DNA of 64,000 bases from an uncultured Acidobacteriota bacterium (GCA_963741955.1 CAVUKB010000007.1:928001-992000), one strand, 5' to 3'; shown: positions 6,113-20,681, counted from the first letter of the stretch. Notes: generated from the letters alone by a model not told the origin. Made by a program: numbers and translations.

Positions 6113-6127
6113 CGGCACGACTCTTGA
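6113..6127 (+). promoter_or_regulatory. Putative sigma54 -24/-12 promoter of the Qrc-like operon
   Basis: CGGCAC-N5-TTGA versus consensus TGGCAC-N5-TTGC, about 90 bp upstream of the first gene; a sigma54 activator is encoded nearby. Confidence 0.5.
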
Positions 6128-6215: not shown

Positions 6216-6458
6216 GTGTTCGGTATCGACCTGATGGACCCTGAAACGATGTGGCTGAACATCACCAACGTCGTCCTCGGTGTCGTGACCTTCCTTTGTG
6301 TCGGTGCGGTCCTCTGGGGGATCGGAGCCGAGGTCCTCGCGCGACTCGCCCACCGGGCGGCAGTGTCCCGCCCCCTCGACGACCACGCGTTCGCAGTCCC
6401 CGGACTCGGTCTGACCATGGCCGACGGCGGAAAGAAAGAACACCAGCCGAAGAAGTAA
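6216..6458 (+). CDS. Small single-TM membrane protein with C-terminal GLTMADGG motif
   Basis: RBS AGGAGG, one hydrophobic helix, first gene of the operon. Confidence 0.75.
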   Translation: MFGIDLMDPETMWLNITNVVLGVVTFLCVGAVLWGIGAEVLARLAHRAAVSRPLDDHAFAVPGLGLTMADGGKKEHQPKK

Positions 6459-6500
6459 CACCATTTCTCACCGGACGCCGTTCGGCGACTGGAGGGGACC

Positions 6501-7526
6501 ATGCAATGCCCGTTTCTGAGGGAATCCCGAGGCAGGTACTGCGACGCGTCGAAGTACCGCAAGCTCATTCTCGACGCAGGGAGCGACGTCACCTCCGAGC
6601 GCTGCTCTTCGCCGGAGTGGGTCCTCTGTTCCGCCGCCCGATCGCAGCCTGGCGCATCCCGCATGCAGTGCCCGTTTCTGAGGGAGCGGAACGTGGAGTA
6701 CTGCGCAGCGGCGGCGGTCCCCAAATACGTACCGGCGAGCAATGCACTCATGTCGCGATGTAAGTCGGACGGTCATCTTTACTGCGAGCTCTATCTCTCC
6801 TTTGCGGATCCCGAGGGGCGGCGGCAGCCGGATCGTGGCGCGCCGCTCCCGGATGACGGAGGCCGGGTTCCCGTGCCGGCCTCTCCCTCCGACTCGCGCG
6901 ATCCGAAATGTGCGCCGCATCCCGGATCCCTCGGACCACCACTGGTCGACGGGATGCCGGTTCCGACGAACCTCGCCTACGCGCCGAACCACATGTGGCT
7001 CTGCATCGCCGAGGACGGCCAGTGCCACGTCGGAATCGACGCGCTTCTGGCGCGCGTGGTCGACTCGGTCGAGAAGATCGACTATCTCCTCACCCGAACC
7101 ACCGGCCGTCCCGTGGCGATACTGACGGTCCGGGGAGTCGACCTGCAGCTGGTCTTCCCGAACCCTCTCGCTTCGGTTTCCGCGAACCTTCACCTCCGTA
7201 CCGTTCCGGAGAGGCTGACCGCCGACCCTTACGGTGCGGGGTGGCTGTTCGAAGGAGAGCAGCCGCAGACGCCGTCTCCACATTCGTTCTCCGGTGAGGG
7301 ATTGATTCCCGGCGCTCTCGCCCCCGAGTGGATCCGCGACGAGTCGGAGCGCCTCTCACACTACGCGCACGACCTCGTCGCGACGCGCGACGAAAGCGGA
7401 GCGACGCTTCTCGCCGACGGCGGGAGAATCGTCGGTCCGCTCGCTCCCGTGCTCGACCGCGAACAGCTCGTGGCGCTCTTCACTGAATTCTTTTCATCCC
7501 CGACGGGATGGCGGAGGACGTGGTGA
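6501..7526 (+). CDS. GcvH-like (H-protein fold) protein with duplicated N-terminal Cys-rich domain, lacking the lipoyl-Lys
   Basis: Two MQCPFLRE...YC repeats; YAPNHMWL, VGID, DPYGAGWLF H-protein motifs. Confidence 0.75.
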   Translation: MQCPFLRESRGRYCDASKYRKLILDAGSDVTSERCSSPEWVLCSAARSQPGASRMQCPFLRERNVEYCAAAAVPKYVPASNALMSRCKSDGHLYCELYLSFADPEGRRQPDRGAPLPDDGGRVPVPASPSDSRDPKCAPHPGSLGPPLVDGMPVPTNLAYAPNHMWLCIAEDGQCHVGIDALLARVVDSVEKIDYLLTRTTGRPVAILTVRGVDLQLVFPNPLASVSANLHLRTVPERLTADPYGAGWLFEGEQPQTPSPHSFSGEGLIPGALAPEWIRDESERLSHYAHDLVATRDESGATLLADGGRIVGPLAPVLDREQLVALFTEFFSSPTGWRRTW

Positions 7527-8110
7527 CCATTCGATCTCTGATCACGTTCGGGTCCGGCCTGCTGGCTGCGCTCGCATTCGGCTGGATCGCATTTCCGCAA
7601 CTTCTTTACCGAACTGCGGAGCAGCCGGTTCAGTTCAATCACGCGATCCACACCGGCGAGACCGGTGGCCTCGCGTGCGAGGATTGCCACTCGCTCGGAG
7701 AGGACGGCAACTTCTCCGGCCTTCCAACGCTCGAACAGTGTGCCGGCTGCCATTCCTCGGCTCTCGGTGAGACCGCGGAGGAGAAACGCTTCATCGAGAA
7801 GTACGTCACACCGGGACGCGAAGTGCCGTGGCTCGTCTACTCGAGGCAACCCGAAAACGTCTACTTTTCCCATGCAGCGCATCTGAAGCTCGCGAAGCTC
7901 GAGTGCCGGCAATGCCACGGCGCGCAAGGCACGAGCACGCGGCTGCGGCCTTTCGCGGTCGACCGGATCAGTACCTACAGCCGCGACATCGACGGTCCGG
8001 GCATCCTCCTCGCCCGTGACGTCGCGGCTCCCGGGATGAAGATGCACGACTGCGCACGCTGCCATCGCGAACGGGGAGTTCGCGAGGGCTGCCTCACCTG
8101 TCACAAGTGA
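7523..8110 (+). CDS. qrcA: Membrane-anchored pentaheme cytochrome c (QrcA-like)
   Basis: N-terminal TM, QPVQFNH, five CxxCH motifs, QPENVYFSH; GTGA overlap with the upstream gene. Confidence 0.8.
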   Translation: MTIRSLITFGSGLLAALAFGWIAFPQLLYRTAEQPVQFNHAIHTGETGGLACEDCHSLGEDGNFSGLPTLEQCAGCHSSALGETAEEKRFIEKYVTPGREVPWLVYSRQPENVYFSHAAHLKLAKLECRQCHGAQGTSTRLRPFAVDRISTYSRDIDGPGILLARDVAAPGMKMHDCARCHRERGVREGCLTCHK

Positions 8111-8123
8111 ATGGGGTGAATCC

Positions 8124-10253
8124 ATGAAATTCGACCTGACTCGGCGAGACGTACTCCGATTCGCCGGAGGTGCGGTGGCCGGAACGGCCATCTCTCCCGC
8201 CCCCTGGAAGGCGATCGACGACCTCGCGATCTGGACTCAGAACTGGAGCTGGATGCCTCGACCTCCTGAGGGACCTCGAAGCACCAGACCGGTGAGCTGC
8301 GCGCTCTGCCCGGCCGGTTGTGCGGCACAGGCCCGCTGCGTCGGCGGTTTTCCGGTGAGCCTTCATCCTGCAAGCGCCGGCGCTGCGCCACTCTGCCCGC
8401 TGGGACAGACCGCCCATCACCTTCGATTTCATCCGGCTCGACTCTCCCGCCCCACTCGTCTGGTCCGCTACCCCGAGGGGCTCAGGCGCATCCCGGTGCA
8501 GCTCGATGCAGTGCTCGCCTCCGCAGCGGCGGGGACGCGCGCTCGCGGAGGGATGGCCGTACTCGATCTTCGTCCTGAACGAAGCGTCTCGTGGGCGTGG
8601 CGCGTCGTTCTCGCTCGCGTCCCCGGCGGCGGCACGTACATTCCGTCGCCGGGGCGTGACGGGGTCAGCCTCGGTATGGCTCTTGGAACCAATTCCGGAG
8701 ACCTGACCCCACTCGCGCTCGACCTCGAGCATTCCCGAACGATCCTCAGCTTCGGTGCACCGCTGCTGGAAGGGGCGAGTGCTCCGCAACTGCTCGCTCT
8801 CAGAAATGGTGCAGAGCCGCCCCGCATCATTCAGGTCGAACCTCACCGTTCGGCCACCGCACAGATGGCGGAACGCTGGCTCGCGCTCCGCCCCGGAACC
8901 GAGCGCATTCTCGCCCTCGGCCTGGGCCGTCAGCTGATCGCGGCCGGTGCCGTCACTCCGGCAGCCATGGCACGGCCTGACTTCAGCGAGTACGCAGAGA
9001 TCGTGGCAGGCTTCACTCCGGCCCGGGTCGCCGCGCTCACCGGACTCGATCCGAATGACGTCGTCGCGACCGCCCGCGAGCTCGCGACGGCCGGCACGGC
9101 TGCGCTCGTGCTTCCCGGTGAAGATCCGGCGGGTGGCCGATTCGGCGCGACGACCGAGGCCGCGATCCTGGCGCTCGACATCATCCTCGGGACTGCGGGT
9201 CCCGACGGAAGCATCGTGGTTCGAAACGAGCTCCCGGCGCCGGTGGAAGGAGCCGAGCTCGCGCCCGTTCGGGAGCTCGATCGCATTCCGGATCGATCGC
9301 TCGGACTTCTCATCGTCGACGCGTCGGCAGGCGATGCTCCCATCCCCTGGCCCGCGATCGAGCGCAAACTCCTTCGCGGGGCCCGAGTCATCGCATTGAG
9401 TCCGTTCCTCGCCGGTTCGTCCGCGCGCGCCGACTACGTCGTCCCGACCCCCACGTTCCTCGAGAGCGTGGCGGAGGTTCCCGGACCGTACCAGTCGCCT
9501 CGCCCGGAGCTCGCGATCTCTCCCGCGATCGCCGAGCCGGTCCATGGAACGACCGACCCGGCCGCGTTCATCCGCGCCTTTGCCACTGCGAGCGGAATCC
9601 CGCTCGACGGGGAGTGGAGACGGACCGAAGATCTGATCCGGTTGCGTGCCGATCGGATCCAGCGGAGCGGTGAGGGTCGGGTCTCCAGTCCATTCGATGG
9701 GTCTGAGACCGCGGTCCGCGATCTCGGCTCCGACGTGATGTTCGATGCCCTGGTGGCCGGGGCCCGGTGGCGAGGGGAGAAGGGGGCCCTCCCGGCGCCT
9801 CCATCCCTCCTCGGTGGAGAGGGCCCGGCTCTTCGCGCGATTCTGGCGGACGAGCAGATCGAGTCGATGCGGGAGCCGCAGTTCGATCTCACCGTCGTAC
9901 CGCGTGCCTCGCGGGACGTCGCATCCACCGCGGTGGTCTCGCCGCTGATGACGAAACTCTATCGCGAATCGGGACTCCGCCGCATTCCGGGCACCGCCGC
10001 GATCCATCCTGCGACCGCAAAGAACCTCGGGATGAGAAGCGGACGGATGGCGCGGATCGAGACGGCGTCGGGATCGGCTCGGGTACGGATTCTGATCGAC
10101 CGGGCGGTGCTCCCCGGCGTGGTGGAGCTGGAAGTCGCTCCCGATGCTCCGGCACTCGGCGACGGTCCCGCTCGCGGAACGTCGCTTCTGGATCTCTGCG
10201 TCGACGGATCGCTCGGATGGCGTCGTGCGGCGGCACGACTGGTGGAGGGATAA
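8124..10253 (+). CDS. qrcB: Molybdopterin-oxidoreductase-fold subunit (QrcB-like)
   Basis: Tat TRRDVLRF, AIWTQNWSW, CALCPAGC...CPLG, C-terminal molydop-binding-like IHPATA..LG. Confidence 0.75.
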   Translation: MKFDLTRRDVLRFAGGAVAGTAISPAPWKAIDDLAIWTQNWSWMPRPPEGPRSTRPVSCALCPAGCAAQARCVGGFPVSLHPASAGAAPLCPLGQTAHHLRFHPARLSRPTRLVRYPEGLRRIPVQLDAVLASAAAGTRARGGMAVLDLRPERSVSWAWRVVLARVPGGGTYIPSPGRDGVSLGMALGTNSGDLTPLALDLEHSRTILSFGAPLLEGASAPQLLALRNGAEPPRIIQVEPHRSATAQMAERWLALRPGTERILALGLGRQLIAAGAVTPAAMARPDFSEYAEIVAGFTPARVAALTGLDPNDVVATARELATAGTAALVLPGEDPAGGRFGATTEAAILALDIILGTAGPDGSIVVRNELPAPVEGAELAPVRELDRIPDRSLGLLIVDASAGDAPIPWPAIERKLLRGARVIALSPFLAGSSARADYVVPTPTFLESVAEVPGPYQSPRPELAISPAIAEPVHGTTDPAAFIRAFATASGIPLDGEWRRTEDLIRLRADRIQRSGEGRVSSPFDGSETAVRDLGSDVMFDALVAGARWRGEKGALPAPPSLLGGEGPALRAILADEQIESMREPQFDLTVVPRASRDVASTAVVSPLMTKLYRESGLRRIPGTAAIHPATAKNLGMRSGRMARIETASGSARVRILIDRAVLPGVVELEVAPDAPALGDGPARGTSLLDLCVDGSLGWRRAAARLVEG

Positions 10254-11027
10254 ATGAGCTCCGCGGAAAAACCGAATCATCGCTACGGCATGGTGATCGA
10301 CCTCGATCGCTGCTCCGGATGCGGCGCCTGCGCGACGGCGTGCGCGGTGGAGAACAACGTTCCGCCGGCGCGGCCCGAAGCGAATGACCGCACCGGCCTC
10401 ACCTGGATGCGCGTTTATCGCGCCGAGAACGGCGAAGATCTTGCGGACGGCCGCGGAGTGTTCATCCCCGTCCTCTGCCAGCAGTGCGAGACCAACACGC
10501 CATGCGTGGCGGTCTGCCCGCAGAACGCGGTCGACGTCAGCCCGGAGACGGGGGTGGTGAGTCAGATCCCGGCCCGCTGTCTCGGATGCCGCTACTGCAT
10601 GGCGGCGTGCCCGTTCCACACCCGCTATTTCAACTGGTTCGATCCGAAGTGGCCTGCCGGGATGGAAGCGACGCTGAATCCCGACGTCTCGGTCCGGATG
10701 CGCGGCGTGGTCGAGAAGTGCAACCTCTGTCACGCGCGCTGGCAGGCGGCGAAGGCGAAGGCCGCGGTCGCCGGGAAGCGCGAGATCGATCCCGCGGACT
10801 ACGTCCCTGCCTGTGTGGAGTCCTGCCCGACCCGCGCGATCGTCTTCGGCGATCTCGACGATGCCGGAAGCGGGGTGGCGAAGGCCGCGAAACAGCGGGA
10901 TGCGTTCCGCCTTCTCGCCCGACTCGGTACCGGAACGAAGATTTTCTACCGTTCGCGCCGGCCCTGGGTGCGCCGTCTCGCAGATGGCGACCTCGCACAG
11001 AGGGAGAAGGAGGTGTCTCGTGTCTGA
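10254..11027 (+). CDS. qrcC: 4Fe-4S dicluster subunit (QrcC/NrfC-like)
   Basis: YGMVIDLDRCSGCGAC, CQQC, CLGCRYCMAACP, EKCNLC, PACVESCP. Confidence 0.85.
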   Translation: MSSAEKPNHRYGMVIDLDRCSGCGACATACAVENNVPPARPEANDRTGLTWMRVYRAENGEDLADGRGVFIPVLCQQCETNTPCVAVCPQNAVDVSPETGVVSQIPARCLGCRYCMAACPFHTRYFNWFDPKWPAGMEATLNPDVSVRMRGVVEKCNLCHARWQAAKAKAAVAGKREIDPADYVPACVESCPTRAIVFGDLDDAGSGVAKAAKQRDAFRLLARLGTGTKIFYRSRRPWVRRLADGDLAQREKEVSRV

Positions 11028-12252
11028 AGCCTTGATCCGACGCGGCGTTCAGCGCTGCTCCCGCGGAAGGTTTCTGGCGTGGCTGGCGCCGTGGGCAGTG
11101 CTGCTGGCGGTTGGCGTCTTCGCGATCGGTCTCTGTCTCGTCGAAGGATTGAACCAGACCAACATGGACAACCGCTTCGCGTTCGGCCTCTGGATCTTCC
11201 TCGACCTGACCGTGATCGCGCTCGGCGCCGGTGCGTTCTTCACCGGCTTCCTCCTCTACATCCTCCGCCGTCACGAGCTGAAGGCGGTGATCAACAGTGC
11301 GGTGGTGATCGGCTTCATCTGCTACTCCGGCGCGGTGCTGGTGCTGATGGTCGACGTCGGCCAGCCCCTGCGTGCGTGGTTCACGTTCTGGCATCCGAAC
11401 GTCCATTCGATGCTCACCGAGGTGACGTTCTGCATCACGTGCTACCTCACGGTGCTGGCGATCGAATATCTCCCGATCATCCTGAAGAACCGCGAGGTTC
11501 GGAAGGTGCCGTCGTATCTCGTCTTCGAGCATCAGCTGCACAAGGCGATGCCGATCCTCGCTGCGACGGGAGCGTTCCTCTCGTTCTTTCACCAGGGATC
11601 GCTCGGAGGTCTGTACGGAGTTCTGCAGGGTCGGCCGTTCGCATTCCGCGAAGGGATCGCGATCTGGCCGACCACGTTCTTCCTCTTCATCCTCTCGGCA
11701 ATCGCGGCCGGACCGGCCTTCGTCCTCCTCACCACCTGGACGGTCTCGAAGATCACCAGGAAGACTCTCGTGAAGCAGGAGGTGTTGCAGCTGCTGTCGA
11801 AGATCTCCGGCTGGCTGCTGATCGTCTACGTCGGGCTGAAGAGCCTCGACACGCTCGGATGGCTGAACGGGACCGCACCGCGGACGGGAATCGTCCCGGC
11901 GCGCTTCTACGGATGGGAGCCATTCGGGAGCTGGATCCTCTTCACCGAGATCGTCCTGCTCGGGCTCGTCCCGGGACTGATGTTCCTGTCACGGCGCACC
12001 AGGGAGAGCACGGGGTGGATGGTCACTGCCTCCGTTCTCGTCTGCGCAGGTGTGGCGCTGAACCGGTTCGTGATGACCATTCAGACTCTCGCGCTCCCGA
12101 CCCTCGAGTTCGATCGTTTCATGCTCTATTTCCCGAGCTGGCAGGAAGTCGCGGCATTCGCCGCAGTGATCGCCTACGGGGTGATTCTCTACTCCGTCTC
12201 GTTCCGTTACCTGACCCTCTTTCCGCAGGAGCGGGAGCTCCAGCAGAGATGA
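11020..12252 (+). CDS. qrcD: NrfD/PsrC-family integral membrane subunit (QrcD-like)
   Basis: Multiple TM helices, FGLWIFLDL, DVGQPLR, HQGSLGG, NRFVMTIQ; GTG start after AAGGAGG. Confidence 0.85.
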   Translation: MSEALIRRGVQRCSRGRFLAWLAPWAVLLAVGVFAIGLCLVEGLNQTNMDNRFAFGLWIFLDLTVIALGAGAFFTGFLLYILRRHELKAVINSAVVIGFICYSGAVLVLMVDVGQPLRAWFTFWHPNVHSMLTEVTFCITCYLTVLAIEYLPIILKNREVRKVPSYLVFEHQLHKAMPILAATGAFLSFFHQGSLGGLYGVLQGRPFAFREGIAIWPTTFFLFILSAIAAGPAFVLLTTWTVSKITRKTLVKQEVLQLLSKISGWLLIVYVGLKSLDTLGWLNGTAPRTGIVPARFYGWEPFGSWILFTEIVLLGLVPGLMFLSRRTRESTGWMVTASVLVCAGVALNRFVMTIQTLALPTLEFDRFMLYFPSWQEVAAFAAVIAYGVILYSVSFRYLTLFPQERELQQR

Positions 12253-12269
12253 GGTCGAGGAGGTATTGA

Positions 12270-13097
12270 ATGTTTCCCGGCATTTATGAATTCAACTGGG
12301 ACGCGCCCCACATCATCTTTCTGGGTGTCTTCTACCTGGTGCTGGTGATCGTCTTCTCGACGCTCTTCATCTCGCTTTTCCGCTCGATTCGCGATTTGCG
12401 GCAGGGCCGCGTCGATGCGATCCGCTGGCACACCGACTTCGAGGATCTCCCGGCCGCCGCGCGAAAGTGCCGGCACGAGATCGTGGGCGACGTCGCCTCC
12501 CGCGTCTGTGTCAATGCGTTCCGGTGTGACCGCTGCGCCGATCACGCCCGTCTCGAGGCGGAGCACCCTTCACGTCCGGGAGCACTGGAGCCGGCGGTGG
12601 CAGGATTCGCTCTCCCTGCGGACCGGCTCTACCACCGCGGCCATACCTGGGTGCGCCCCGAAGAGGACGGGACGATGACCATCGGACTCGACGATCTCGG
12701 GCGGCGACTGAGCGGGGAGCGGGAGTCTTTCGAGCTTCCACGGCCCGGGACGAGACTCCACGCGAACGGAGAAGGATGGATCGTTCGGCAGAGGGGGATC
12801 ACGCTCCGCGTGCAGTCGCCGGTCGCCGGCGAAGTGATTGCAACCGGTGACGCGGGAGACGAGTGGGTACTGAAGATCCGTCCGGAGAGCGACCCGCCGG
12901 AGACGAGACACCTCCTCACTCCGGTAGAAGCTCGCTCGTGGATGCTGCGCGAAGTGGAACGGCTGCAGCTCGCACTCGGATCGGCGGGCCTCGGCGCGAC
13001 GCTCGCCGACGGCGGAACGCCGGTCGAGAATCTCTCCGAGATCATTCCCCCCGACCGTCTCGACGACGTCCTCGGCGACGTCTTCCTCGACCCGTAG
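12270..13097 (+). CDS. Membrane-anchored GcvH-like protein with Cys-rich motif, lacking the lipoyl-Lys
   Basis: N-terminal TM, CRH...C...CDRC, LYHRGHTWV, IGLDD, SPVAGEV. Confidence 0.75.
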   Translation: MFPGIYEFNWDAPHIIFLGVFYLVLVIVFSTLFISLFRSIRDLRQGRVDAIRWHTDFEDLPAAARKCRHEIVGDVASRVCVNAFRCDRCADHARLEAEHPSRPGALEPAVAGFALPADRLYHRGHTWVRPEEDGTMTIGLDDLGRRLSGERESFELPRPGTRLHANGEGWIVRQRGITLRVQSPVAGEVIATGDAGDEWVLKIRPESDPPETRHLLTPVEARSWMLREVERLQLALGSAGLGATLADGGTPVENLSEIIPPDRLDDVLGDVFLDP

Positions 13098-13105
13098 ATG
13101 CGGTA

Positions 13106-13538
13106 GCCCCGCAGGGGCGATTGACGGATTCCGGACGGAAAGACCGCGGAGGCAAAGCCCCGTAGGGGCGATTGACAATAGCCCAGGGCGCAGCCCTGGG
13201 GTGACGTGCGGACGAAATCCCTGTTCGACAGCCCCGGAGGGGCGATTGAAAATAGCCCAGGGCGCAGCCCTGGGATGTCAACGGAAAGCTCGCGGTGGCA
13301 AAGCCCCGTAGGGGCGATTGACAGTAGCCCAGGGCGCAGCCCTGGGGTGTCAACGGAAAGACCGCGGAGGCGGAGCCCCGTAGGGGCGATTGACAGTAGC
13401 CCAGGGCGCAGCCCTGGGGTGTCAACGGAAAGCTCGCGGTGGCAAAGCCCCGTAGGGGCGATTGAAAATAGCCCAGGACGCAGTCCTGGGATGACGACGG
13501 AAAGACCATGGTTGCGGAGCCCCGGAGGGGCGATTGAG
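13106..13538. repeat. REP-like palindrome array (~72-bp period, about 7 units) downstream of the RAYT
   Basis: Repeated AGCCCCGTAGGGGCGATTGA-N-TAGCCCAGGGCGCAGCCCTGGG. Confidence 0.9.
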
Positions 13539-13991
13539 TCATCCCCACACGTACTTCGGATCGTATTCGATCCCGTGGACGTCGAGGAACTCCAGAAACT
13601 CCTCCTGAAACGTCTTCGCCTTGTGATGCTTCTCCTGATTACGGATGTACTGCTCGGTCTTCTCCCGCGCGGAGATACTGAGGCTGAACGCGCCGTATCC
13701 TTCCTGCCATGCGAATCCGTGCGCACGGGGAAATGTCTCTTTCACGAACTTCGACGAACCGGCCTTGATCAACTGCATCGCCCTCGCGATGGAAATCTTC
13801 GCGGGGATCGAAAGAAGGATGTGCGCGTGGTCGAAATAGCCTCCGACTTCCAGAGCGCGCATTTCGTTCTCGCGAGCAATGCCTCCGATAAAGGGCCAGA
13901 GTCGCTCGCGAAGGTCTCGCTCGAGAAAGGGTTCACGGTTCTTCGTGCTGAAGATGCAGTGCACAAGACAGCTCGTGAAGGTATGTCCCAT
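13539..13991 (-). mobile_element. tnpA: IS200-like Y1 HUH transposase, REP-associated (RAYT)
   Basis: HCIFSTKNR, DHAHIL (HUH), WQEGYGAFS, YIRNQ..HH; flanked by REP arrays. Confidence 0.9.
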
Positions 13992-14011
13992 CGTGGTATC
14001 AACTCCTCGAT

Positions 14012-14277
14012 TCAATCGCCCCTCCGGGGCTCATCGATTTTACACGACGCTTGATGCGACCCCAGGACTGCGTCCTGGGCTATTGTCAATCGCCCCTACG
14101 GGGCTCGGGATGATGGCGATGATTGTATGGGAACCGGCATCCTGACCCCAGGACTGCGTCCTGGGCTATTGTCAATCGCCCCTCCGGGGCTCGTGATGAC
14201 CGGGATGATTGTATTGGGATCGCCATCCTGACCCCAGGACTTCGTCCTGGGCTATTGTCAATCGCCCCTACGGGGCT
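14012..14277. repeat. REP-like array in inverted orientation (~86-bp period, 4 units)
   Basis: CCCAGGACTGCGTCCTGGGCTATTGTCAATCGCCCCTACGGGGCT repeated. Confidence 0.9.
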
Positions 14278-14326
14278 ACCCCCGACCCCCGACCCCTGAT
14301 CTCTGCTCCCCGCCCCCCCCGGCCCG

Positions 14327-15697
<1,371 letters not shown>

Positions 15698-16261
15698 GAT
15701 CGGGTTCTCCGTCCTGCGAAACGGCGGCGGTGCGTGACGCTGCGAGCGCGTCGTGGAGAAGCAGCTCGCAGTCGCCGCAGAAGCCGTCGCCTTTCGCGTC
15801 GAGTTTCCGGATGTCGGTCGAAAGAGCCATGGTGCACTGCGGGTTCTCGCAATGCGTCAGGCCATAGGCGTGTCCGATCTCGTGCAGCACTTCCTTCCGG
15901 ACACGCAGGAGGAAGAGCGATGGATTCGAGGGAAGACCGTAGAACTCCTGACGCAGCCGGGCGAATGAAAGAATCGCTGCGGGTCCGTCGAGCTGCGCCT
16001 GTCCGTAGACGAACGAGAGCATGGGGATGAAGAGATCGCGTTCGGTCAGGACGAGGAGCTTTTCCGCGGCCGCGGGGCGGCGCGGGATCGCGTCGCGCAG
16101 AATCAGGGTCGAACTGTATTGGGACCGCGCAGGATCGAACGCGTACTCCGGCTCGGGAAGCGGCTCGAGCCGCCGGATTGCGACGCCGAGAACCGACTCG
16201 AGGGACCGCGAAGCCCAGGCCGCTGCATTCGCCTCCACCATTCCTGCCTCCACCACCGCGA

Positions 16262-17902
16262 TCAGACCCACCGCGACTCTTCCAATCCCGTCTTCGCAGC
16301 CGCGGGCGCCGACGGGGTGGTCTCCGCGACGTCGTTCGTGCGCGGCAGCGACACGTGGAACGAGGTTCCTTCGCCGACGTGACTGGTGACCTCGATCTCT
16401 CCGTTGTGTGCCTTCACGATCCCGTACACCACCGCGAGTCCGAGTCCCACCCCTTTGCCTTCTTCCTTGGTGGTGAAGAAGGGATCGAAAATCTTCGAGA
16501 GAAGCTCCGAGGGAATCCCCGCGCCGGTATCGGAGACTTCGAGCAGCACGTGCTCCTCGTCGTGCGAGGTCTTCACCGTCACCTTCCCTCCTCCTTTCAG
16601 CGCCTCGGCGCCGTTCAGGAGAAGGTTGATCACTACCTGCTGGATTTGCGACGGATCGCAGCGAAGCGTGGGGAGCTTCTCGTCCAGCTGCAGGTCGAGT
16701 GCGACGTTCGCGAGCTGCAGTTTGTGCGCGACGAGCGACACGGTGGTCCGGATCACCGCGTTGAGATCTCCTTCGATGTTCTGCGGCTTCGAGCGGCGGG
16801 AAAAGGAGAGGAGATCCGAGACGATCCGGCCGACCCGGGAGGTCTCGGTCGAGACCTGCTCGAGGTAGCGGCGGAACTCGGCGATCCGTGCGGGAGGAAT
16901 GCCGTCGTCCTTCAGGATCCGCTGCATCAGCATGGAGAGATTCAGGACACCGGAGAGAGGATTGTTGATCTCGTGCGCCACGCTGGCGGCGAGCTCGCCG
17001 AGAGACGCGAGACGGTCGGTCTGGATCAGCTTCTGCTGGGCGATCTTGAGCTGCCGGGTCCGTTCCTCGACTTTCGATTCGAGCTTCTGAGTGAACTCCG
17101 CGTTCTGGTCCATCGCGAGCTTGAGCCGCTCGCGCATCAGGTTGAATGATCGCGCCAGATGCTCGAACTCCTCGCTCGAGCGGATCTCGATCGGCTGGTC
17201 GAGCTGCATCTCGCTGATCGACTTCGTCGCCGCGATCAGACGGCGGATCGGCTTGTCGATCACGTTGTGGGTGAAGATCAGGAGGAAGATCACGATCAGC
17301 GTGATCTCGCCGGCGGTGAGGAGGCCGGTGCGGAGCCGGATCGCGCTCATGTCCTCATCGATCCGCGACGCGTCGAGGGTGAGGTCGAGAACGCCGAGAA
17401 CTCTGACGCTGGCGGGGTGCGCGTGGCACGAAGCCTGGCTGCACGAAGGCTCGTTGTAGATGGGGGTGATCATGGCGATGGCGCGGGTGCCGTCGGGACG
17501 GCGGAACATCCGGGCGCGCGAGGGAACGTCGACCTTGACCAGCGGCCTCGCCGCGGCGTGGCAGGGGGAGCAGACCTCCGCACTCTCATCGACGTGAATC
17601 TTCTCCGTCGGAGTGGTGGAGAACATCAGGCGCCCGTCCTTGTTGAACATCCGGATCAGGGAGATCCCCTGCTTGTCGGCGATGGTCTTCATCACCTCGT
17701 AGCTCGCCTGGCGATGGTCGGCGAGCATGGATTGCCAGGTCGCGCTGGTGATGCTGCGCGAGAGCTGGTCGGCGCCGAGGACCATGCTCTCGACCAGCTG
17801 GCGCTCCTGGCTCTTCAGATTGGCGTAGAGCGAGAACGTGGTGACGATCAGGGCGATGACTGCGAGCGCGAGAATCAGCTTCGTCGCGAGGCGCCGAGGC
17901 AC
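16262..17902 (-). CDS. Membrane sensor histidine kinase with putative heme-c sensor domain and HAMP
   Basis: Two TMs, periplasmic CSPCH and CSQASCH, VAHEINNPL, NLLLN, DTGAGI, FFTTK, GLGL; GTG start after GGAGG. Confidence 0.9.
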   Translation of the reverse strand: MPRRLATKLILALAVIALIVTTFSLYANLKSQERQLVESMVLGADQLSRSITSATWQSMLADHRQASYEVMKTIADKQGISLIRMFNKDGRLMFSTTPTEKIHVDESAEVCSPCHAAARPLVKVDVPSRARMFRRPDGTRAIAMITPIYNEPSCSQASCHAHPASVRVLGVLDLTLDASRIDEDMSAIRLRTGLLTAGEITLIVIFLLIFTHNVIDKPIRRLIAATKSISEMQLDQPIEIRSSEEFEHLARSFNLMRERLKLAMDQNAEFTQKLESKVEERTRQLKIAQQKLIQTDRLASLGELAASVAHEINNPLSGVLNLSMLMQRILKDDGIPPARIAEFRRYLEQVSTETSRVGRIVSDLLSFSRRSKPQNIEGDLNAVIRTTVSLVAHKLQLANVALDLQLDEKLPTLRCDPSQIQQVVINLLLNGAEALKGGGKVTVKTSHDEEHVLLEVSDTGAGIPSELLSKIFDPFFTTKEEGKGVGLGLAVVYGIVKAHNGEIEVTSHVGEGTSFHVSLPRTNDVAETTPSAPAAAKTGLEESRWV

Positions 17903-18013
17903 GATTCCACCTCCATGGGGCGACTCCCTTCCATAATTTAATCCCTGTTTACGTTTGGGTCCGGTCATCCGAACCGAGCGGATGTGACGCGGAGGAGAAG
18001 ACGACTGCAGAAT

Positions 18014-18518: not shown

Positions 18519-18596
<78 letters not shown>

Positions 18597-18608
18597 CTGA
18601 AATCGAGC

Positions 18609-18636
18609 GAACGCCGCCGCGAGGCGGCGTTTCTTT
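18609..18636 (+). terminator. Intrinsic terminator after the tRNA (repeated in each array unit)
   Basis: GAACGCCGCC-GCGA-GGCGGCGTTTC followed by TTT. Confidence 0.7.
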
Positions 18637-18697
18637 GCAAAGAGAGGGTCTCGATCCGGCAGAGTTCGAGAGGGGCTCATAATCCCGCAAGGCGGGA

Positions 18698-18728
<31 letters not shown>

Positions 18729-18829
18729 CTGAAATCGAGCGAACGCCGCCGCGAGGCGGCGTTTCTTTGCAAGGAGAGGGTCTCGATCCGGCAGAGTTCG
18801 AGAAAGGCTCATAATCCCGCAAGGCGGGA

Positions 18830-18860
<31 letters not shown>

Positions 18861-18961
18861 CTGAAATCGAGCGAACGCCGCCGCGAGGCGGCGTTTCTTT
18901 GCAAGGAGAGGGTCTCGATCCGGCAGAGTTCGAGAAAGGCTCATAATCCCGCAAGGCGGGA

Positions 18962-18992
<31 letters not shown>

Positions 18993-19038
18993 CTGAAATC
19001 GAGCGAACGCCGCCGCGAGGCGGCGTTTCCTGTTTCAC

Positions 19039-19332
19039 ATGTCACGGGTGAGCCAACAGCCATACTCGTTGTACGTCCTCTGGAGCGAGCGAGGTCGTCG
19101 GTTCTACATCGGAATCAGCGAAGATCCAGGTCGCCGATTGGAGCAGCACAACTCGGACGAGAACAAGGGATGGACGCGTAGGTACGCCCCCTGGAAGATG
19201 GCTCACGTCGAGAGATTCGAAACGTACGCGGACGCGCGGCGGCGAGAGATCGAATTGAAAGCGCAGAAGAGAGGCTGCGGATTTTTCGAGAAGACCGGCC
19301 TCGACCCCACCGAATTCGGGTTGGGCTCATAA
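19039..19332 (+). CDS. Small stand-alone GIY-YIG nuclease
   Basis: LYVLWS....FYIG.S.D..RRL.QHN, ARRREIELK. Confidence 0.9.
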   Translation: MSRVSQQPYSLYVLWSERGRRFYIGISEDPGRRLEQHNSDENKGWTRRYAPWKMAHVERFETYADARRREIELKAQKRGCGFFEKTGLDPTEFGLGS

Positions 19333-19347
19333 TCCCGCAAGGCGGGA

Positions 19348-19378
<31 letters not shown>

Positions 19379-19479
19379 CTGAAATCGAGCGAACGCCGCC
19401 GCGAGGCGGCGTTTCTTTGCAAAGAGAGGGTCTCGATCCGGCGGAGTTCGAGAGGGGCTCATAATCCCGCAAGGCGGGA

Positions 19480-19510
<31 letters not shown>

Positions 19511-19625
19511 CTGAAATCGAGCGAACGCCGCCGCGAGGCGGCGTTTTTGTTCTCTTTCTCTGGAAATCCACTCGGCCGACACTTCTCGCTCTGCTACGGG
19601 TCCTGATCTGTGCCAGACTGACAAT

Positions 19626-20681
19626 GTGGACGAACCATTCATCGCGCGGTTGGAGCAGAGCTGCGATACGAAGTGGCATGCCATTGACCGGGCCGCCGAA
19701 CGTACGCAGACGGAATTGCGCCGGATCGGAACGGCTCTCGCGAAGTTCGACGATCCTTCGACCTCAATCATCGCAACAGGTTCGTACGGTCGAGGTGAGG
19801 TGACTGGGAAAAGCGATCTGGACTGGATTCTCCTCATCGACGGCCCTTCGGATCCCAACCATCTCAAGCTTGCTCGCGGTATCGAAAGCGAGTTGGCGAA
19901 GATGGAGATCAAGTCTCCTGGACCGACCGGGACGTTCGGCTCCCTGGTCGACAGCCACGAGCTCGTTCATCACATCGGCGGTACGAGTGATACCAACGAG
20001 AATCTCACGAGGCGGGTGCTCCTCCTGACCGAATCGGTGGCGCTCACTCACCCCGAAATCAGGGAACGGGTGATCCGAAATGTCCTCTCTCGGTACGTAG
20101 TTCACGATCGTCCGATCGCCAGCCGCTCCGACCGCAAACCAAGCCGCATTCCACATTTTCTGTTGAACGATGTGGTGCGCTACTGGCGCACGATTGCTTC
20201 GGATTTCGCTTCGAAGATGTGGGAACGAGCGGGAGAGGGATGGGCGATTCGAAATGTGAAGCTTCGATTCTCCAGGAAACTGATCTTCGTAGCCGGACTT
20301 CTAACGTGCTTTTCCGCCGAAATCCTCAGGCCGGTTCCACTCGAGGGTGCTTCAGACGACGAAGCCTTCTTCGTTCTCCTGGCCGACTTCATCCGTGAAC
20401 AGAGCAACCTGCAGCCACTGGAAAAGCTGGCTCGAACGATTCTTCCGTATCCCGAGACGGCCCTGAAAATTCTGGGGCCGTATGATTTCTTTCTTTCGAT
20501 CCTCGATGACGAATCCGAACGGGAGGTGCTTGAAAAGGTCACCTTCGAGCAGGCGCCATCGAATGAGATCTATAATCGACTTCGGGACCGAAGCCAGGAA
20601 TTCCGTGACGGTATCGAGAGGCTGTTCTTCGACGACGATCCGGATTTGCGGCGACTGATTCGAAAGGTGGGGGTGTTCTGA
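19626..20681 (+). CDS. Pol-beta superfamily nucleotidyltransferase with helical C-terminal region
   Basis: TGSYGRGEVTGKSDLD motif; LTRRVLLLTES, LLNDVVRYWRT, RNVKLRFSRK. Confidence 0.75.
   Translation: MDEPFIARLEQSCDTKWHAIDRAAERTQTELRRIGTALAKFDDPSTSIIATGSYGRGEVTGKSDLDWILLIDGPSDPNHLKLARGIESELAKMEIKSPGPTGTFGSLVDSHELVHHIGGTSDTNENLTRRVLLLTESVALTHPEIRERVIRNVLSRYVVHDRPIASRSDRKPSRIPHFLLNDVVRYWRTIASDFASKMWERAGEGWAIRNVKLRFSRKLIFVAGLLTCFSAEILRPVPLEGASDDEAFFVLLADFIREQSNLQPLEKLARTILPYPETALKILGPYDFFLSILDDESEREVLEKVTFEQAPSNEIYNRLRDRSQEFRDGIERLFFDDDPDLRRLIRKVGVF

What the first reader, a model, noticed from the sequence alone, without database searches (positions are those of the whole stretch)
6216..13097. 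Three accessory proteins of a Qrc-like operon share a G-x-T-x(1-2)-ADGG motif
Seen: the 80-aa membrane protein (PGLGLTMADGG, ~6400-6431), GcvH-like 1 (SGATLLADGG, ~7395-7424) and GcvH-like 2 (AGLGATLADGG, ~12985-13016) all carry this motif near the C-terminus, although the small protein is otherwise unrelated. Known: Desulfovibrio QrcABCD is a four-subunit cytochrome c3:menaquinone reductase without such partners. Inference: the motif is a shared docking, modification or cleavage signal that defines an uncharacterised accessory module for this respiratory complex.
Basis: partly seen in the sequence, partly recalled or inferred. Interest (0 to 1): 0.75.

Follow-up and report, generated by a model that had tools for sequence, protein, structure and literature searches.

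The report
Conserved DGG-loop accessory module of Qrc
Three extra, inward-facing proteins that travel with a quinone-reducing respiratory complex in soil bacteria share one invariant Asp-Gly-Gly loop, and that loop also marks a wider protein family inherited together with a protease of unknown substrate and its regulatory switch, which gives a testable lead to what both do.

Summary
The 80-aa membrane protein (6216-6458), GcvH-like 1 (6501-7526) and GcvH-like 2 (12270-13097) flank qrcABCD and each carry (L/M)ADGG. LGxTMADGG is invariant in 81 of 81 small-protein orthologues. LADGG is invariant in 56 of 56 intact GcvH-like 2. DGG is present in 75 of 77 GcvH-like 1. The G-x-T part is conserved only in the small protein; the shared core is x-D-G-G.

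The seven-gene operon recurs in 56 of 59 related loci with enough flank. The two GcvH-likes are paralogues with an H-protein fold and no lipoyl lysine. Their DGG loop is the only invariant feature of a C-terminal extension found in a much wider family of membrane-tethered GcvH-like proteins.

In a 201-genome phylum sample, all 43 genomes with this family also encode an archaemetzincin, within 10 kb in 34. That gene usually sits in a sigma-54 two-component operon with a two-haem-motif kinase, often beside NrfC/NrfD modules.

The loop's role (docking, cleavage or modification) is unresolved. My best guess is a shared recognition loop, with the co-inherited archaemetzincin as the leading candidate partner.

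The parts
6114..6127 (+). Sigma-54-type -24/-12 promoter-like site (GGCACG-N4-TTGA) about 90 nt upstream of the small gene
   Evidence: A strict GG..GC site lies upstream of the small gene in 18 of 79 orthologous loci. A relaxed pattern matches 30 of 78 upstream regions, against 0 of 72 coding controls and 0 of 78 reverse-complement controls.
6216..6458 (+). 80-aa single-pass membrane protein (N-out, C-in by the positive-inside rule). It has a conserved TM helix (WLNxTN..LG) and a cytoplasmic tail H-x-F-x-V-P-x-LGxTMADGG-E/K.
   Evidence: No Pfam or NCBIfam family matched. There are 547 50%-identity cluster representatives at E<=0.001.
6399..6431 (+). Motif PGLGLTMADGG of the small protein
6501..7526 (+). 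GcvH-like 1. It has two N-terminal Cys4 'CPFLxE..C' modules, no TM helix, an H-protein fold at 152-287, and a C-terminal extension with the DGG loop.
   Evidence: VIA Z 14.5, rmsd 2.2 over 128 residues to pea H-protein 1dxm_A.
7395..7424 (+). Motif SGATLLADGG of GcvH-like 1
   Evidence: pLDDT for the residue block 301-310 is 63, between blocks of 78 and 88.
7508..8110 (+). QrcA, a membrane-anchored multihaem cytochrome c
   Evidence: NF041781 scores 221 bits against a cut-off of 180.
8124..10253 (+). QrcB-like molybdopterin-family subunit with a Tat-type RRDVLR signal
   Evidence: NF041783 scores 211.6 bits, below the cut-off of 440. Pfam Molydop_binding matched.
10254..11027 (+). QrcC-like 4Fe-4S subunit
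   Evidence: NF041782 scores 345 bits, below the cut-off of 400.
11026..12252 (+). QrcD, an NrfD-type integral membrane subunit. The coordinates give the HMM-matched part of the ORF that opens at 10813.
   Evidence: NF041784 scores 592.6 bits against a cut-off of 570, over residues 72-476 of the ORF.
12270..13097 (+). GcvH-like 2. It has an N-terminal TM helix, a CRH..C..C..C..H module, an H-protein fold, and a C-terminal extension with LADGG exactly 26 residues from the end.
12984..13016 (+). Motif AGLGATLADGG of GcvH-like 2, in a low-confidence loop (residues 239-246 have pLDDT below 50) between helices 218-236 and 261-271
14327..15697 (-). Sigma-54-dependent response regulator (receiver, AAA+ and HTH_8 domains)
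   Evidence: It lies convergent and adjacent to the operon in 24 of 52 orthologous loci with at least 2 kb of flank.
15666..16271 (-). Archaemetzincin with an intact HEIGHAYGLTHC..C.M..CGDC motif and no signal peptide
   Evidence: NF033823 scores 149.5 bits against a cut-off of 145. The motif was read from the translation and compared with the consensus in the abstract of PMC3427221.
16262..17968 (-). Sensor histidine kinase (HAMP, HisKA, HATPase) with periplasmic CSPCH and CSQASCH haem-c-type motifs
   Evidence: The CxxCH plus Cx4CH pair is present in 19 of 19 kinases of this unit that I examined.

Best explanation
The three motif-bearers are cytoplasm-facing accessory proteins of an NrfD-type quinone module, here a Qrc-type one.

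GcvH-like 1 and 2 belong to a wide family of H-protein-fold proteins that have no lipoyl lysine. Family members are usually membrane-tethered and often carry Cys4 modules. The only invariant feature of their C-terminal extension is a D-G-G turn in a flexible loop between two helices. The small protein is a minimal carrier of the same loop: one conserved TM helix plus the loop.

The family is inherited as a unit with a sigma-54 two-component system. That system has a kinase with two haem-c-type motifs, an NtrC-type regulator and, between them, a cytoplasmic archaemetzincin. It probably switches the operon on from a sigma-54 promoter.

I take the DGG loop to be a shared recognition site presented to one common partner. 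The best candidate is the co-inherited archaemetzincin, which would bind or cut at the loop and so mature, release or turn over the accessory proteins.

Shown here: motif conservation, paralogy, fold, loss of the lipoyl lysine, synteny, phyletic co-occurrence, and co-expression with qrc in one MAG.

Inferred: membrane topology, attachment to QrcD, recognition by a common partner, and any role for the protease. My probabilities are about 0.45 for a shared recognition loop of the module and about 0.25 for the archaemetzincin as its partner.
For: **Conservation**
- The motif is invariant in orthologues, with synonymous codon drift.
- D-G-G are the only invariant columns in a 27-sequence alignment of family C-terminal extensions with 34% mean column identity.

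**Structure**
- The loop has low confidence while its flanks are confident. In GcvH-like 2, residues 239-246 have pLDDT below 50 in a model with mean 85.7. In GcvH-like 1, the residue block 301-310 scores 63.

**Similarity of the small protein to the family loop**
- Profile-profile comparisons align the small protein's tail on the family loop. Against GcvH-like 2: probability 75%, E 2.5e-5, 27 columns. Against the wide family: probability 57%, E 1e-4.
- In the whole genome read in six frames, the three best hits of the small-protein profile are the protein itself, its paralogue and the GcvH-like 2 loop.

**Synteny**
- GcvH-like 1 follows the small gene in 79 of 80 loci. The full operon is present in 56 of 59 loci with at least 6.8 kb downstream.

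**Link to archaemetzincin**
- All 43 genomes with the DGG extension are among the 66 of 201 genomes that have an archaemetzincin. In 34 of the 43 the two genes lie within 10 kb on one contig.
- Archaemetzincin was present in 17 of 23 long loci around family members, and NrfD in 12 of 23 (Pfam checks).
- The four archaemetzincin-only genomes I inspected have a solitary protease without kinase or regulator.
- The archaemetzincin keeps its catalytic motif (translation). Passages of PMC3427221 report a small closed S1' pocket and say natural substrates are unknown.

**Expression**
- In MAG CO124 (locus L064), GcvH-like 1 has log2FC -4.73 with padj 0.003, and the kinase has -4.69 with padj 0.004. 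Both move with qrcD (-4.38, padj 0.018). The small gene has -3.11, not significant (supplementary files of PMC10564751). The paper's text says qrcABCD is transcribed under anoxic conditions.
Against: - No direct evidence of binding or cleavage exists.
- The co-occurrence singles out the whole gene unit, not the protease. The kinase and the regulator co-occur equally well.
- The archaemetzincin lies in the regulatory operon, not beside its supposed substrates. In MAG CO124 it had no recorded expression change (0, 0).
- A bacterial relative, CarG, works as a non-proteolytic transcription co-factor (passage of PMC3427221).
- The same paper infers a basic or hydrophobic substrate from the groove's charge, whereas the loop carries an Asp.
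- D-G-G could be a purely structural helix-cap or turn. The same four letters occur in the AAA+ core of the neighbouring regulator (ELADGGTLFLDE).
- The similarity between the small protein and the GcvH-likes spans only 20-27 columns at modest probability (42-75%).
- The 201 genomes are related, so the 43 of 43 overstates independence.
- I chose the 23 long loci from the listed full-length matches. They are not a random sample.
Confidence: 0.42

Rival explanations
1. Assembly or docking element with no protease involved. The DGG loops, together with the conserved TM helices of the small protein and GcvH-like 2, fix the accessory proteins to the cytoplasmic face of QrcD/NrfD or to one another. 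This would form a cytoplasmic cap that gates or stabilises the N-side proton path, or that links to cytoplasmic redox partners.
For: - The TM helices are highly conserved, with polar residues. In the small protein W13, N18, L21 and G22 are invariant and N15 and T17 nearly so. In GcvH-like 2 P3, F8, W10 and F17-G19 are nearly invariant.
- Gene spacing is tight: a 42-nt gap from the small gene to GcvH-like 1, an overlap between GcvH-like 1 and qrcA, and a 17-nt gap from qrcD to GcvH-like 2.
- NrfC/NrfD lie beside family members in 12 of 23 long loci and in 4 of the short ones.
- QrcD is reported to draw protons from the N side (abstract and passages of PMC6303296).
- One family member is fused to NuoG-like Fe-S domains beside NuoE/F-like genes (L114).
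Against: - Eight long loci have the family and the two-component/archaemetzincin unit but no NrfC/NrfD match in the locus at tblastn E<=1e-6.
- NrfD-type subunits carry no cofactor that could pass electrons to a cytoplasmic partner (established knowledge of the family).
- QrcD here aligns end to end with the canonical model, with no extra domain.
Confidence: 0.28
2. Signalling accessory. The GcvH-like proteins and the small protein are co-sensors of the two-component system (a 'three-component' arrangement). Their loop would contact the kinase or the sigma-54 regulator to report the state of the membrane or redox module.
For: - The two-component unit is the most constant neighbour. Archaemetzincin together with kinase and regulator is present in 17 of 23 long loci, often without any respiratory genes.
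- The kinase has two conserved haem-c-type motifs in 19 of 19 cases.
- Kinase and GcvH-like 1 are co-regulated in MAG CO124.
Against: - Nothing links the loop itself to the kinase or the regulator.
- Three carriers per operon is unusual for a co-sensor.
- The operon position, flanking the structural genes, suggests subunits rather than regulators.
Confidence: 0.1
3. Modification or GG-exposure site. The Asp or the Gly-Gly would be covalently modified, or the chain would be cut after GG to expose a C-terminal Gly-Gly that is then activated, as in ThiS/MoaD/ubiquitin-like carriers. This would give the lipoyl-less H-protein fold a new swinging arm.
For: - The loop is flexible.
- The lipoyl lysine is lost (alignment) while the carrier fold is kept.
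- What follows GG in the small protein is a variable charged tail of 7-37 residues.
Against: - In both GcvH-likes the sequence after GG is conserved and of fixed length (26 residues in GcvH-like 2) and is modelled as a packed helix.
- No E1-like, JAMM or C39 gene was seen in the loci. I judged this by eye and did not search for them systematically.
Confidence: 0.07
4. No shared function. DGG would be only a structural turn of the GcvH-like extension, and the small protein's resemblance would be chance or convergence for unrelated reasons.
For: - The similarity is short (hhalign 20-27 columns; the in-script run gave only 42% probability).
- ADGG alone is common: 353 occurrences in the six-frame ORF space of the genome.
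- ADGG also occurs in the regulator's AAA+ core.
Against: - The small protein's motif is invariant across 81 orthologues.
- It sits in the same operon.
- It is the only long stretch of that protein, outside the TM helix, that is conserved.
- The genome-wide profile search puts the GcvH-like 2 loop third of all six-frame hits.
Confidence: 0.13

Closest known systems
QrcABCD menaquinone reductase of Desulfovibrio vulgaris
   Same: Same four subunits in the same order. QrcA and QrcD score above NCBIfam's equivalog cut-offs. There is a periplasmic cytochrome c, a molybdopterin-like subunit with a Tat signal, an Fe-S subunit and an NrfD-type membrane subunit.
   Different: - QrcB and QrcC score below their cut-offs (211.6 against 440; 345 against 400).
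- The host genome has no dsrA (0 matches in a genome 99.1% complete).
- The operon carries three extra cytoplasm-facing proteins and sits beside a sigma-54 two-component/archaemetzincin unit.
- The purified Desulfovibrio complex is described with four subunits (passages of PMC6303296).
Glycine cleavage H-protein (GcvH) and lipoate-binding GcvH-like carriers
   Same: Same fold. GcvH-like 2: Foldseek TM about 0.8 normalised to the target over about 126 residues. GcvH-like 1: VIA Z 14.5. The H.W motif at the start of the fold is kept.
   Different: - The lipoyl lysine is replaced; the position aligns to G/R in the hairpin.
- NCBIfam GcvH scores are 27-33 bits against a cut-off of 117.
- Additions: a TM anchor or Cys4 modules at the N-terminus and a roughly 60-residue C-terminal extension with the DGG loop.
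- The genomic context is respiratory and regulatory, not glycine cleavage.
Archaemetzincins (AmzA, AMZ-tk) and CarG of Myxococcus
   Same: The neighbouring protease passes NF033823 and keeps the extended HEXXHXXGXXHC..C.M..CXXC motif. Like CarG, it sits in a transcription-control context.
   Different: - Natural substrates are unknown for the family (passage of PMC3427221).
- Here it is embedded between a kinase and a sigma-54 regulator, and it co-occurs with the DGG family in 43 of 43 genomes.
- Unlike CarG, it keeps the catalytic Glu.
DsrMKJOP, HmcABCDEF and TmcABCD complexes of sulfate reducers (recalled)
   Same: Periplasmic cytochrome c or Fe-S modules and an NrfD-type membrane subunit are combined with cytoplasm-facing subunits.
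   Different: Those complexes have a haem-b membrane subunit and an HdrD-like CCG protein that carry electrons across the membrane. Here no haem-b subunit or CCG protein was seen, and the cytoplasmic proteins are H-protein folds.

Membership tests
QrcABCD menaquinone reductase | Four genes qrcA-D in order, each matching its NCBIfam equivalog model above the cut-off | tested here: inconclusive
   The order is met. QrcA scores 221 against a cut-off of 180 and QrcD 592.6 against 570, so both pass. QrcB scores 211.6 against 440 and QrcC 345 against 400, so both are below.
QrcABCD menaquinone reductase | Cytochrome c3:menaquinone oxidoreductase activity, electrogenic | not testable with these tools
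   This needs biochemistry. The host lacks dsrA, so the physiological donor may differ.
Glycine cleavage H-protein | H-protein fold | tested here: met
Glycine cleavage H-protein | Lipoyl-lysine in the hairpin (ESVKA-type) | tested here: not met
   The phmmer alignment to E. coli H-protein puts G/R at the lysine position. No lysine is invariant there in 30 orthologues.
Glycine cleavage H-protein | Score above the NCBIfam GcvH cut-off | tested here: not met
   27 and 33.3 bits against a cut-off of 117.
Archaemetzincin (neighbouring gene) | NF033823 above the cut-off, plus the HEXXHXXGXXH and Cys4 motif | tested here: met
   149.5 bits against a cut-off of 145. HEIGHAYGLTHCENPQCTM...CGDC was read. 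The spacer before CXXC is 16 residues by my count, against 17 in the published consensus.
Double-glycine leader or ubiquitin-like GG-terminus systems | Cleavage after GG by a dedicated peptidase and an activating enzyme or exporter encoded nearby | not tested
   No such gene was noticed in the loci I mapped. No systematic search was made, and cleavage cannot be tested here.
Sigma-54 (bEBP) two-component control of the operon | NtrC-type regulator adjacent, plus a -24/-12 promoter upstream of the first gene | tested here: met
   Sigma54_activat matched at 2e-70. Promoter-like sites occur in 30 of 78 upstream regions against 0 in both controls. The window's own site has GA instead of GC at -12.

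The most novel reading that the evidence does not exclude
The DGG loop is the natural recognition and cleavage site of the bacterial archaemetzincin encoded in the sigma-54 two-component operon. Under this reading the haem-sensing kinase switches on the operon, and the protease then clips the membrane-tethered GcvH-like proteins and the small protein at the loop. That step would mature or release the cytoplasmic cap of NrfD-type quinone modules. It would give a first physiological substrate for the archaemetzincin family and a first function for lipoyl-less H-protein folds in respiration.
Probability: 0.22. Interest if true: 0.85.

Novelty: new variant of a known kind. Interest (0 to 1): 0.68.

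Why it matters
**For Qrc and NrfD-type modules.** Qrc is textbook as a four-subunit, periplasm-only quinone reductase. Here, and in related loci from Acidobacteriota, Ignavibacteria/Bacteroidota, KSB1 and one Chloroflexota-labelled MAG (record titles), it comes with three conserved cytoplasm-facing proteins that nobody seems to have described. If they are subunits, NrfD-type modules have a cytoplasmic face that current models lack.

**For archaemetzincins.** Their natural substrates are reported as unknown (passage of PMC3427221). A 43-of-43 phyletic link and frequent adjacency to one protein family with a single invariant exposed loop turns that open question into a simple peptide-cleavage or binding experiment.

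**For annotation.** These proteins are widely labelled 'glycine cleavage system H protein', which is misleading for metabolic reconstructions of soil and peat Acidobacteriota.

**Literature searches.** Full-text searches found no paper for 'QrcABCD' with 'glycine cleavage', 'GcvH' with 'NrfD', or 'archaemetzincin' with 'two-component'.

Tried and rejected
- **Complex prediction.** The small protein with GcvH-like 1, both as alignments, gave no verdict (score 0.00 in two runs, controls not run). This says nothing either way.
- **Sequencing runs.** No RNA holder was listed. I did not lay reads.
- **Earlier findings of this scan.** Nothing by place or by sequence.
- **Protein Atlas.** For the small protein it returned only its own hypothetical clusters. 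For the N-terminal Cys modules of GcvH-like 1 there was no usable feature hit.
- **VIA wide search with the GcvH-like 1 model.** Nothing clear appeared for residues 1-140 (best Z 2.8). That part was barely tested, so its fold stays open.
- **Search for fused forms of the small protein.** The 'longer' search and long hits gave P0387, P0383 and P0366. Read by eye, these are frameshifted or read-through gene calls joining the small gene to GcvH-like 1, not real fusions. The other longer hits are MFS transporters at E 0.5 or worse.
- **Papers.** PMC2906268 is not held. A search for the Desulfovibrio locus tags flanking qrc found nothing. I therefore could not check whether canonical Desulfobacterota qrc loci lack these genes.
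- **Rejected idea: the small ORF as a leader or an RNA-level element.** Codons drift synonymously while the peptide is invariant.
- **Rejected idea: the GcvH-likes as lipoyl carriers.** The lysine is absent.

Full report
**What is in the window**

On the + strand lie seven co-directional genes:
- a small ORF (6216-6458, 80 aa);
- GcvH-like 1 (6501-7526, 341 aa);
- qrcA (7508-8110), qrcB (8124-10253), qrcC (10254-11027) and qrcD (about 11026-12252);
- GcvH-like 2 (12270-13097, 275 aa).

Spacing is tight. There is a 42-nt gap after the small gene, the GcvH-like 1 and qrcA ORFs overlap, and 17 nt separate qrcD from GcvH-like 2.

NCBIfam places QrcA (221 bits against a cut-off of 180) and QrcD (592.6 against 570) above their equivalog cut-offs. 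QrcC (345 against 400) and QrcB (211.6 against 440) fall below. Pfam agrees on the domain families.

Convergent on the - strand are three further genes:
- a sigma-54-dependent response regulator (14327-15697);
- an archaemetzincin (15666-16271; NF033823 at 149.5 bits against 145);
- a HAMP/HisKA histidine kinase (16262-17968).

**The observation**

ADGG as such is not unusual at DNA level. There are 6 matches against 4.49 expected, and 32 of 100 shuffles reach 6.

The extended form is unusual. T[LMIV]{1,2}ADGG occurs 5 times in 7.9 million residues of six-frame ORFs of the whole 5.4-Mb genome. Three of these are in this operon. A fourth is a 94-aa paralogue of the small protein on contig C4.

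**Conservation of the small protein**

It has no Pfam or NCBIfam family but many relatives:
- 146 proteins at E<=1 among 148 candidates in the 90%-identity collection;
- 547 representatives at E<=0.001 in the 50%-identity library, where all of the best 150 listed are 70-262 aa long.

I aligned 30 sequences picked from the 120 listed. The invariant columns are W13, N18, L21 and G22 in the TM helix, and L64, G65, T67, M68, A69, D70, G71 and G72 in the tail.

In the 80 genomic loci fetched with this alignment (274 confirmed matches, best 80 kept), plus the window, LGxTMADGG is present in 81 of 81. It is followed by E, K or R and then a variable charged tail. Every degenerate codon position of the motif varies synonymously. 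Selection therefore acts on the peptide.

**The two GcvH-likes**

They are paralogues. hhalign gives probability 98.8 and E 5.5e-17 over 164 columns, with the two motifs in register.

Both have the H-protein fold:
- GcvH-like 2: AF2 mean pLDDT 85.7; Foldseek TM about 0.8 normalised to the target over about 126 residues to E. coli and other H-proteins.
- GcvH-like 1: mean pLDDT 79.0; VIA Z 14.5, rmsd 2.2 over 128 residues to 1dxm_A.

Neither is a working H-protein. The lipoyl-lysine position aligns to G/R, no lysine is invariant there, and the NCBIfam GcvH scores are 27 and 33 bits against a cut-off of 117.

GcvH-like 2 has a conserved N-terminal TM helix and an invariant C67, C80, C86, C89, H69 and H92 module. 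GcvH-like 1 has no TM helix but eight invariant cysteines in two 'CPFLxE...C' repeats.

Motif counts:
- GcvH-like 2: LADGG in 56 of 56 after I dropped four rows that look split or frameshifted (L019, L055, L061, L083). Before dropping, ADGG was in 56 of 59. The motif is always 26 residues from the C-terminus.
- GcvH-like 1: DGG in 75 of 77, with A before it in 49.

In both models the motif sits in a loop of lower confidence between two confident helices. In GcvH-like 2, residues 239-246 are below pLDDT 50. In GcvH-like 1, the block 301-310 scores 63.

**Is the small protein's motif the same thing?**

Profile-profile comparison aligns only the tail:
- probability 42%, P 2.7e-4, 20 columns in my script;
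- probability 75%, E 2.5e-5, 27 columns with the tool's alignments;
- probability 57%, E 1e-4 against the wider family.

A profile of the small protein searched over the whole genome in six frames finds itself first, then the C4 paralogue (E 2.9e-4), then the GcvH-like 2 loop (E 0.37).

This is suggestive of common origin or convergence on one function. It is not proof.

**Topology (inference from sequence)**

The small protein and GcvH-like 2 have acidic N-termini and a run of Arg/His just after the TM helix. By the positive-inside rule their tails face the cytoplasm. GcvH-like 1 and the archaemetzincin have no signal or TM segment. All DGG loops and the protease would then share the cytoplasm, whereas QrcA, B and C are periplasmic.

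**Synteny**
- GcvH-like 1 follows the small gene within 400 nt in 79 of 80 loci (median gap 48 nt).
- Of 59 loci with at least 6.8 kb downstream, 56 have qrcABCD and GcvH-like 2.
- The exceptions are L024 (small gene alone) and L028 and L032 (small gene plus GcvH-like 1 only).
- By record title, the loci come mostly from Acidobacteriota MAGs, with some from Ignavibacteria/Bacteroidota, KSB1 and one Limnocylindrales-labelled MAG.
- The regulator and archaemetzincin lie directly beyond GcvH-like 2 in 24 of 52 loci with at least 2 kb of flank.

**The wider family**

The genome has a third, 'orphan' TM-anchored GcvH-like protein (L086 9115-9792) ending in ...ALAQDGG....

Searching it across 201 genomes of the phylum found canonical GcvH almost everywhere. 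It also found full-length relatives, often in tandem, in several dozen genomes.

I aligned the last 85 residues of 27 diverse members. D, G, G are the only invariant columns, at 34% mean column identity.

A profile of that alignment matches 56 of 201 genomes. In 13 of these the match stops before the DGG column; I read these as the end of ordinary H-proteins and set them aside. That leaves 43 genomes: 42 with a full match and one cut by a contig end. QrcD was found in only 2 of the 201.

**Link to archaemetzincin and NrfCD**

The archaemetzincin model matches 66 of the 201 genomes, and all 43 DGG-family genomes are among them. The resulting table is 43 with both, 0 with the family only, 23 with the protease only, and 135 with neither.

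Comparing coordinates by hand, 34 of the 43 have the two genes within 10 kb on one contig. Most of the other nine are on short contigs.

The genomes are related, so this is not 43 independent events. Three unpublished genomes (G152, G049, G024) are in the denominators only.

I mapped 23 longer loci around family members, chosen from the listed full-length matches and therefore not a random sample:
- archaemetzincin with kinase and regulator is present in 17;
- NrfD is present in 12 (NrfC with it in 11);
- two loci have neither (L116, and the contig-limited L121).

Pfam confirmed one variant, in L101: kinase, archaemetzincin, two TM-GcvH-likes, cytochrome c, NrfC-like, NrfD. The regulator placed between the kinase and the archaemetzincin is known only from the tblastn map. 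In L099 Pfam confirmed the sigma-54 regulator, the kinase and the NrfC-like and NrfD proteins.

In L114 the family domain is fused to NuoG-like 2Fe-2S/4Fe-4S domains next to NuoE- and NuoF-like genes. The Cys modules of GcvH-like 1 and 2 also occur there as a free-standing protein.

Four genomes with archaemetzincin but without the family show a solitary protease gene, with no kinase or regulator.

The window's genome has a second NrfC-NrfD-kinase-regulator-archaemetzincin unit on contig C6 (L126). Orthologues of its 'orphan' GcvH-like sit next to NrfC-NrfD in other genomes (L091, L093-L095).

**Regulation**

All 19 kinases of this unit that I examined carry CxxCH and Cx4CH about 43 residues apart in the predicted periplasmic part. 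That points to a two-haem redox or ligand sensor.

A strict sigma-54 -24/-12 site lies 29-96 nt upstream of the small gene in 18 of 79 loci. A relaxed pattern hits 30 of 78 upstream regions, against 0 of 72 coding controls and 0 of 78 reverse-complement controls. The window has GGCACGACTCTTGA at 6114-6127.

**Expression**

Locus L064 is contig NODE_1 of MAG CO124, studied in PMC10564751. The text (passage) says qrcABCD was transcribed under anoxic conditions.

Supplementary file 2 (passages) gives the following; ns means not significant.

| Gene no. | Product | log2 fold change | adjusted P |
|---|---|---|---|
| 00042 | kinase | -4.69 | 0.0038 |
| 00043 | archaemetzincin | 0 | 1 |
| 00044 | regulator | -1.97 | ns |
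| 00048 | GcvH-like 2 | 0 | 1 |
| 00049 | qrcD | -4.38 | 0.018 |
| 00050 | qrcC | -1.15 | ns |
| 00051 | qrcB | -4.11 | 0.058 |
| 00052 | qrcA | -3.59 | 0.137 |
| 00053 | GcvH-like 1 | -4.73 | 0.003 |
| 00054 | small protein | -3.11 | ns |

GcvH-like 1 and the kinase therefore move with qrc. The data are thin for the others. I did not read the whole supplement.

**What it most likely is**

The three proteins are a conserved cytoplasm-facing accessory set of a Qrc-type member of the NrfCD module family. The DGG loop is the defining, exposed, invariant feature of the GcvH-like family that supplies two of them. The small protein presents the same loop on a bare TM anchor.

The family, the sigma-54/haem-kinase switch and the archaemetzincin are inherited together, while the redox module beside them varies (Qrc, cytochrome c-NrfCD, NrfCD, NuoEFG-like, or none nearby). 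I therefore read the loop as a recognition site for a partner common to all these contexts.

The protease is the most natural such partner:
- it is in the same compartment;
- it has an intact active site;
- its family has no known substrate and a small closed S1' pocket (passages of PMC3427221);
- at least one family member is an active endoprotease (abstract and passages of PMC4681839).

This step is inference. The co-occurrence fits the kinase or the regulator equally well. A structural or docking role on NrfD or between the accessory proteins remains a strong rival.

**Novelty**

Full-text searches found nothing that links Qrc or NrfD with GcvH-like proteins, or archaemetzincin with two-component systems. 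One search lists 35 papers that mention archaemetzincin; I saw 25 as listings and read passages of three. Public annotations call these proteins 'glycine cleavage system H protein' or 'hypothetical'.

I file this as a new variant of a known kind: a known respiratory module with an undescribed accessory and regulatory set.

Noticed in passing
window 16262-17968 (-), and kinases in L018, L020, L063, L099-L120 and L126: The sensor kinase of the unit carries CxxCH and Cx4CH motifs about 43 residues apart in its predicted periplasmic part, in 19 of 19 kinases examined. This looks like a two-haem c-type sensor domain. Pfam sees only a weak Mcp40H-20_sensor match.
   Followed up: partly
window 14979-14989 (-), inside the response regulator: A fourth ADGG occurs in ELADGGTLFLDE of the sigma-54 AAA+ domain. 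From memory this is the usual segment before Walker B in this regulator family, so the bare four letters also occur in an unrelated fold next door.
   Followed up: no
G000 contig C6, L126 9938-15461 (-): The same genome has a second NrfC-NrfD-kinase-regulator-archaemetzincin unit with no DGG gene in the 20-kb stretch. A TM-GcvH-like with AQDGG (L086 9115-9792) and a 94-aa small-protein paralogue with LGVTMADGG and a YEDEPMDE tail (L085 9902-10186, -) lie elsewhere and may serve it in trans.
   Followed up: partly
L114 8824-12913 (-): A NuoE-like gene, a NuoF-like gene and a NuoG-like 2Fe-2S/4Fe-4S protein fused to the GcvH-like/ADGG domain lie between the kinase and the regulator. Beside them is a free-standing 170-aa protein made of one 'CPFLxE' module and two 'C(R/K)YML.G.V....C..NY.C..C' modules, the same modules as in GcvH-like 1 and 2.
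   Followed up: partly
window 13100-14300: An IS200-like Y1 transposase (13539-14015, -, Pfam Y1_Tnp 4e-25) is flanked by arrays of a short repeat that translates as ...PGLRPGLLSIAPTGL... in several frames. It looks like a REP/RAYT-type element inserted between the operon and the regulator.
   Followed up: no
window 18519-19912: tRNA-Met (18519-18595) is followed by several repeated copies of a segment that translates as ...AGAGFEPAIPPCGIMS..., and by a GIY-YIG ORF (19039-19332). These may be repeated tRNA-end fragments from integration events.
   Followed up: no
whole genome G000: No dsrA match was found in a genome 99.1% complete, so this Qrc-type complex works outside dissimilatory sulfate or sulfite reduction.
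   Followed up: partly
database proteins P0383, P0366 and P0387: Apparent fusions of the small protein with GcvH-like 1 in public protein sets are frameshifted or read-through gene calls. Such entries could mislead domain-architecture surveys.
   Followed up: yes
L028 and L032, 9001-10258: In two Terriglobia/Bryobacteraceae MAGs the small gene and GcvH-like 1 stand as a pair with no qrc genes in 8 kb downstream. The neighbours are unrelated or unassigned.
   Followed up: partly
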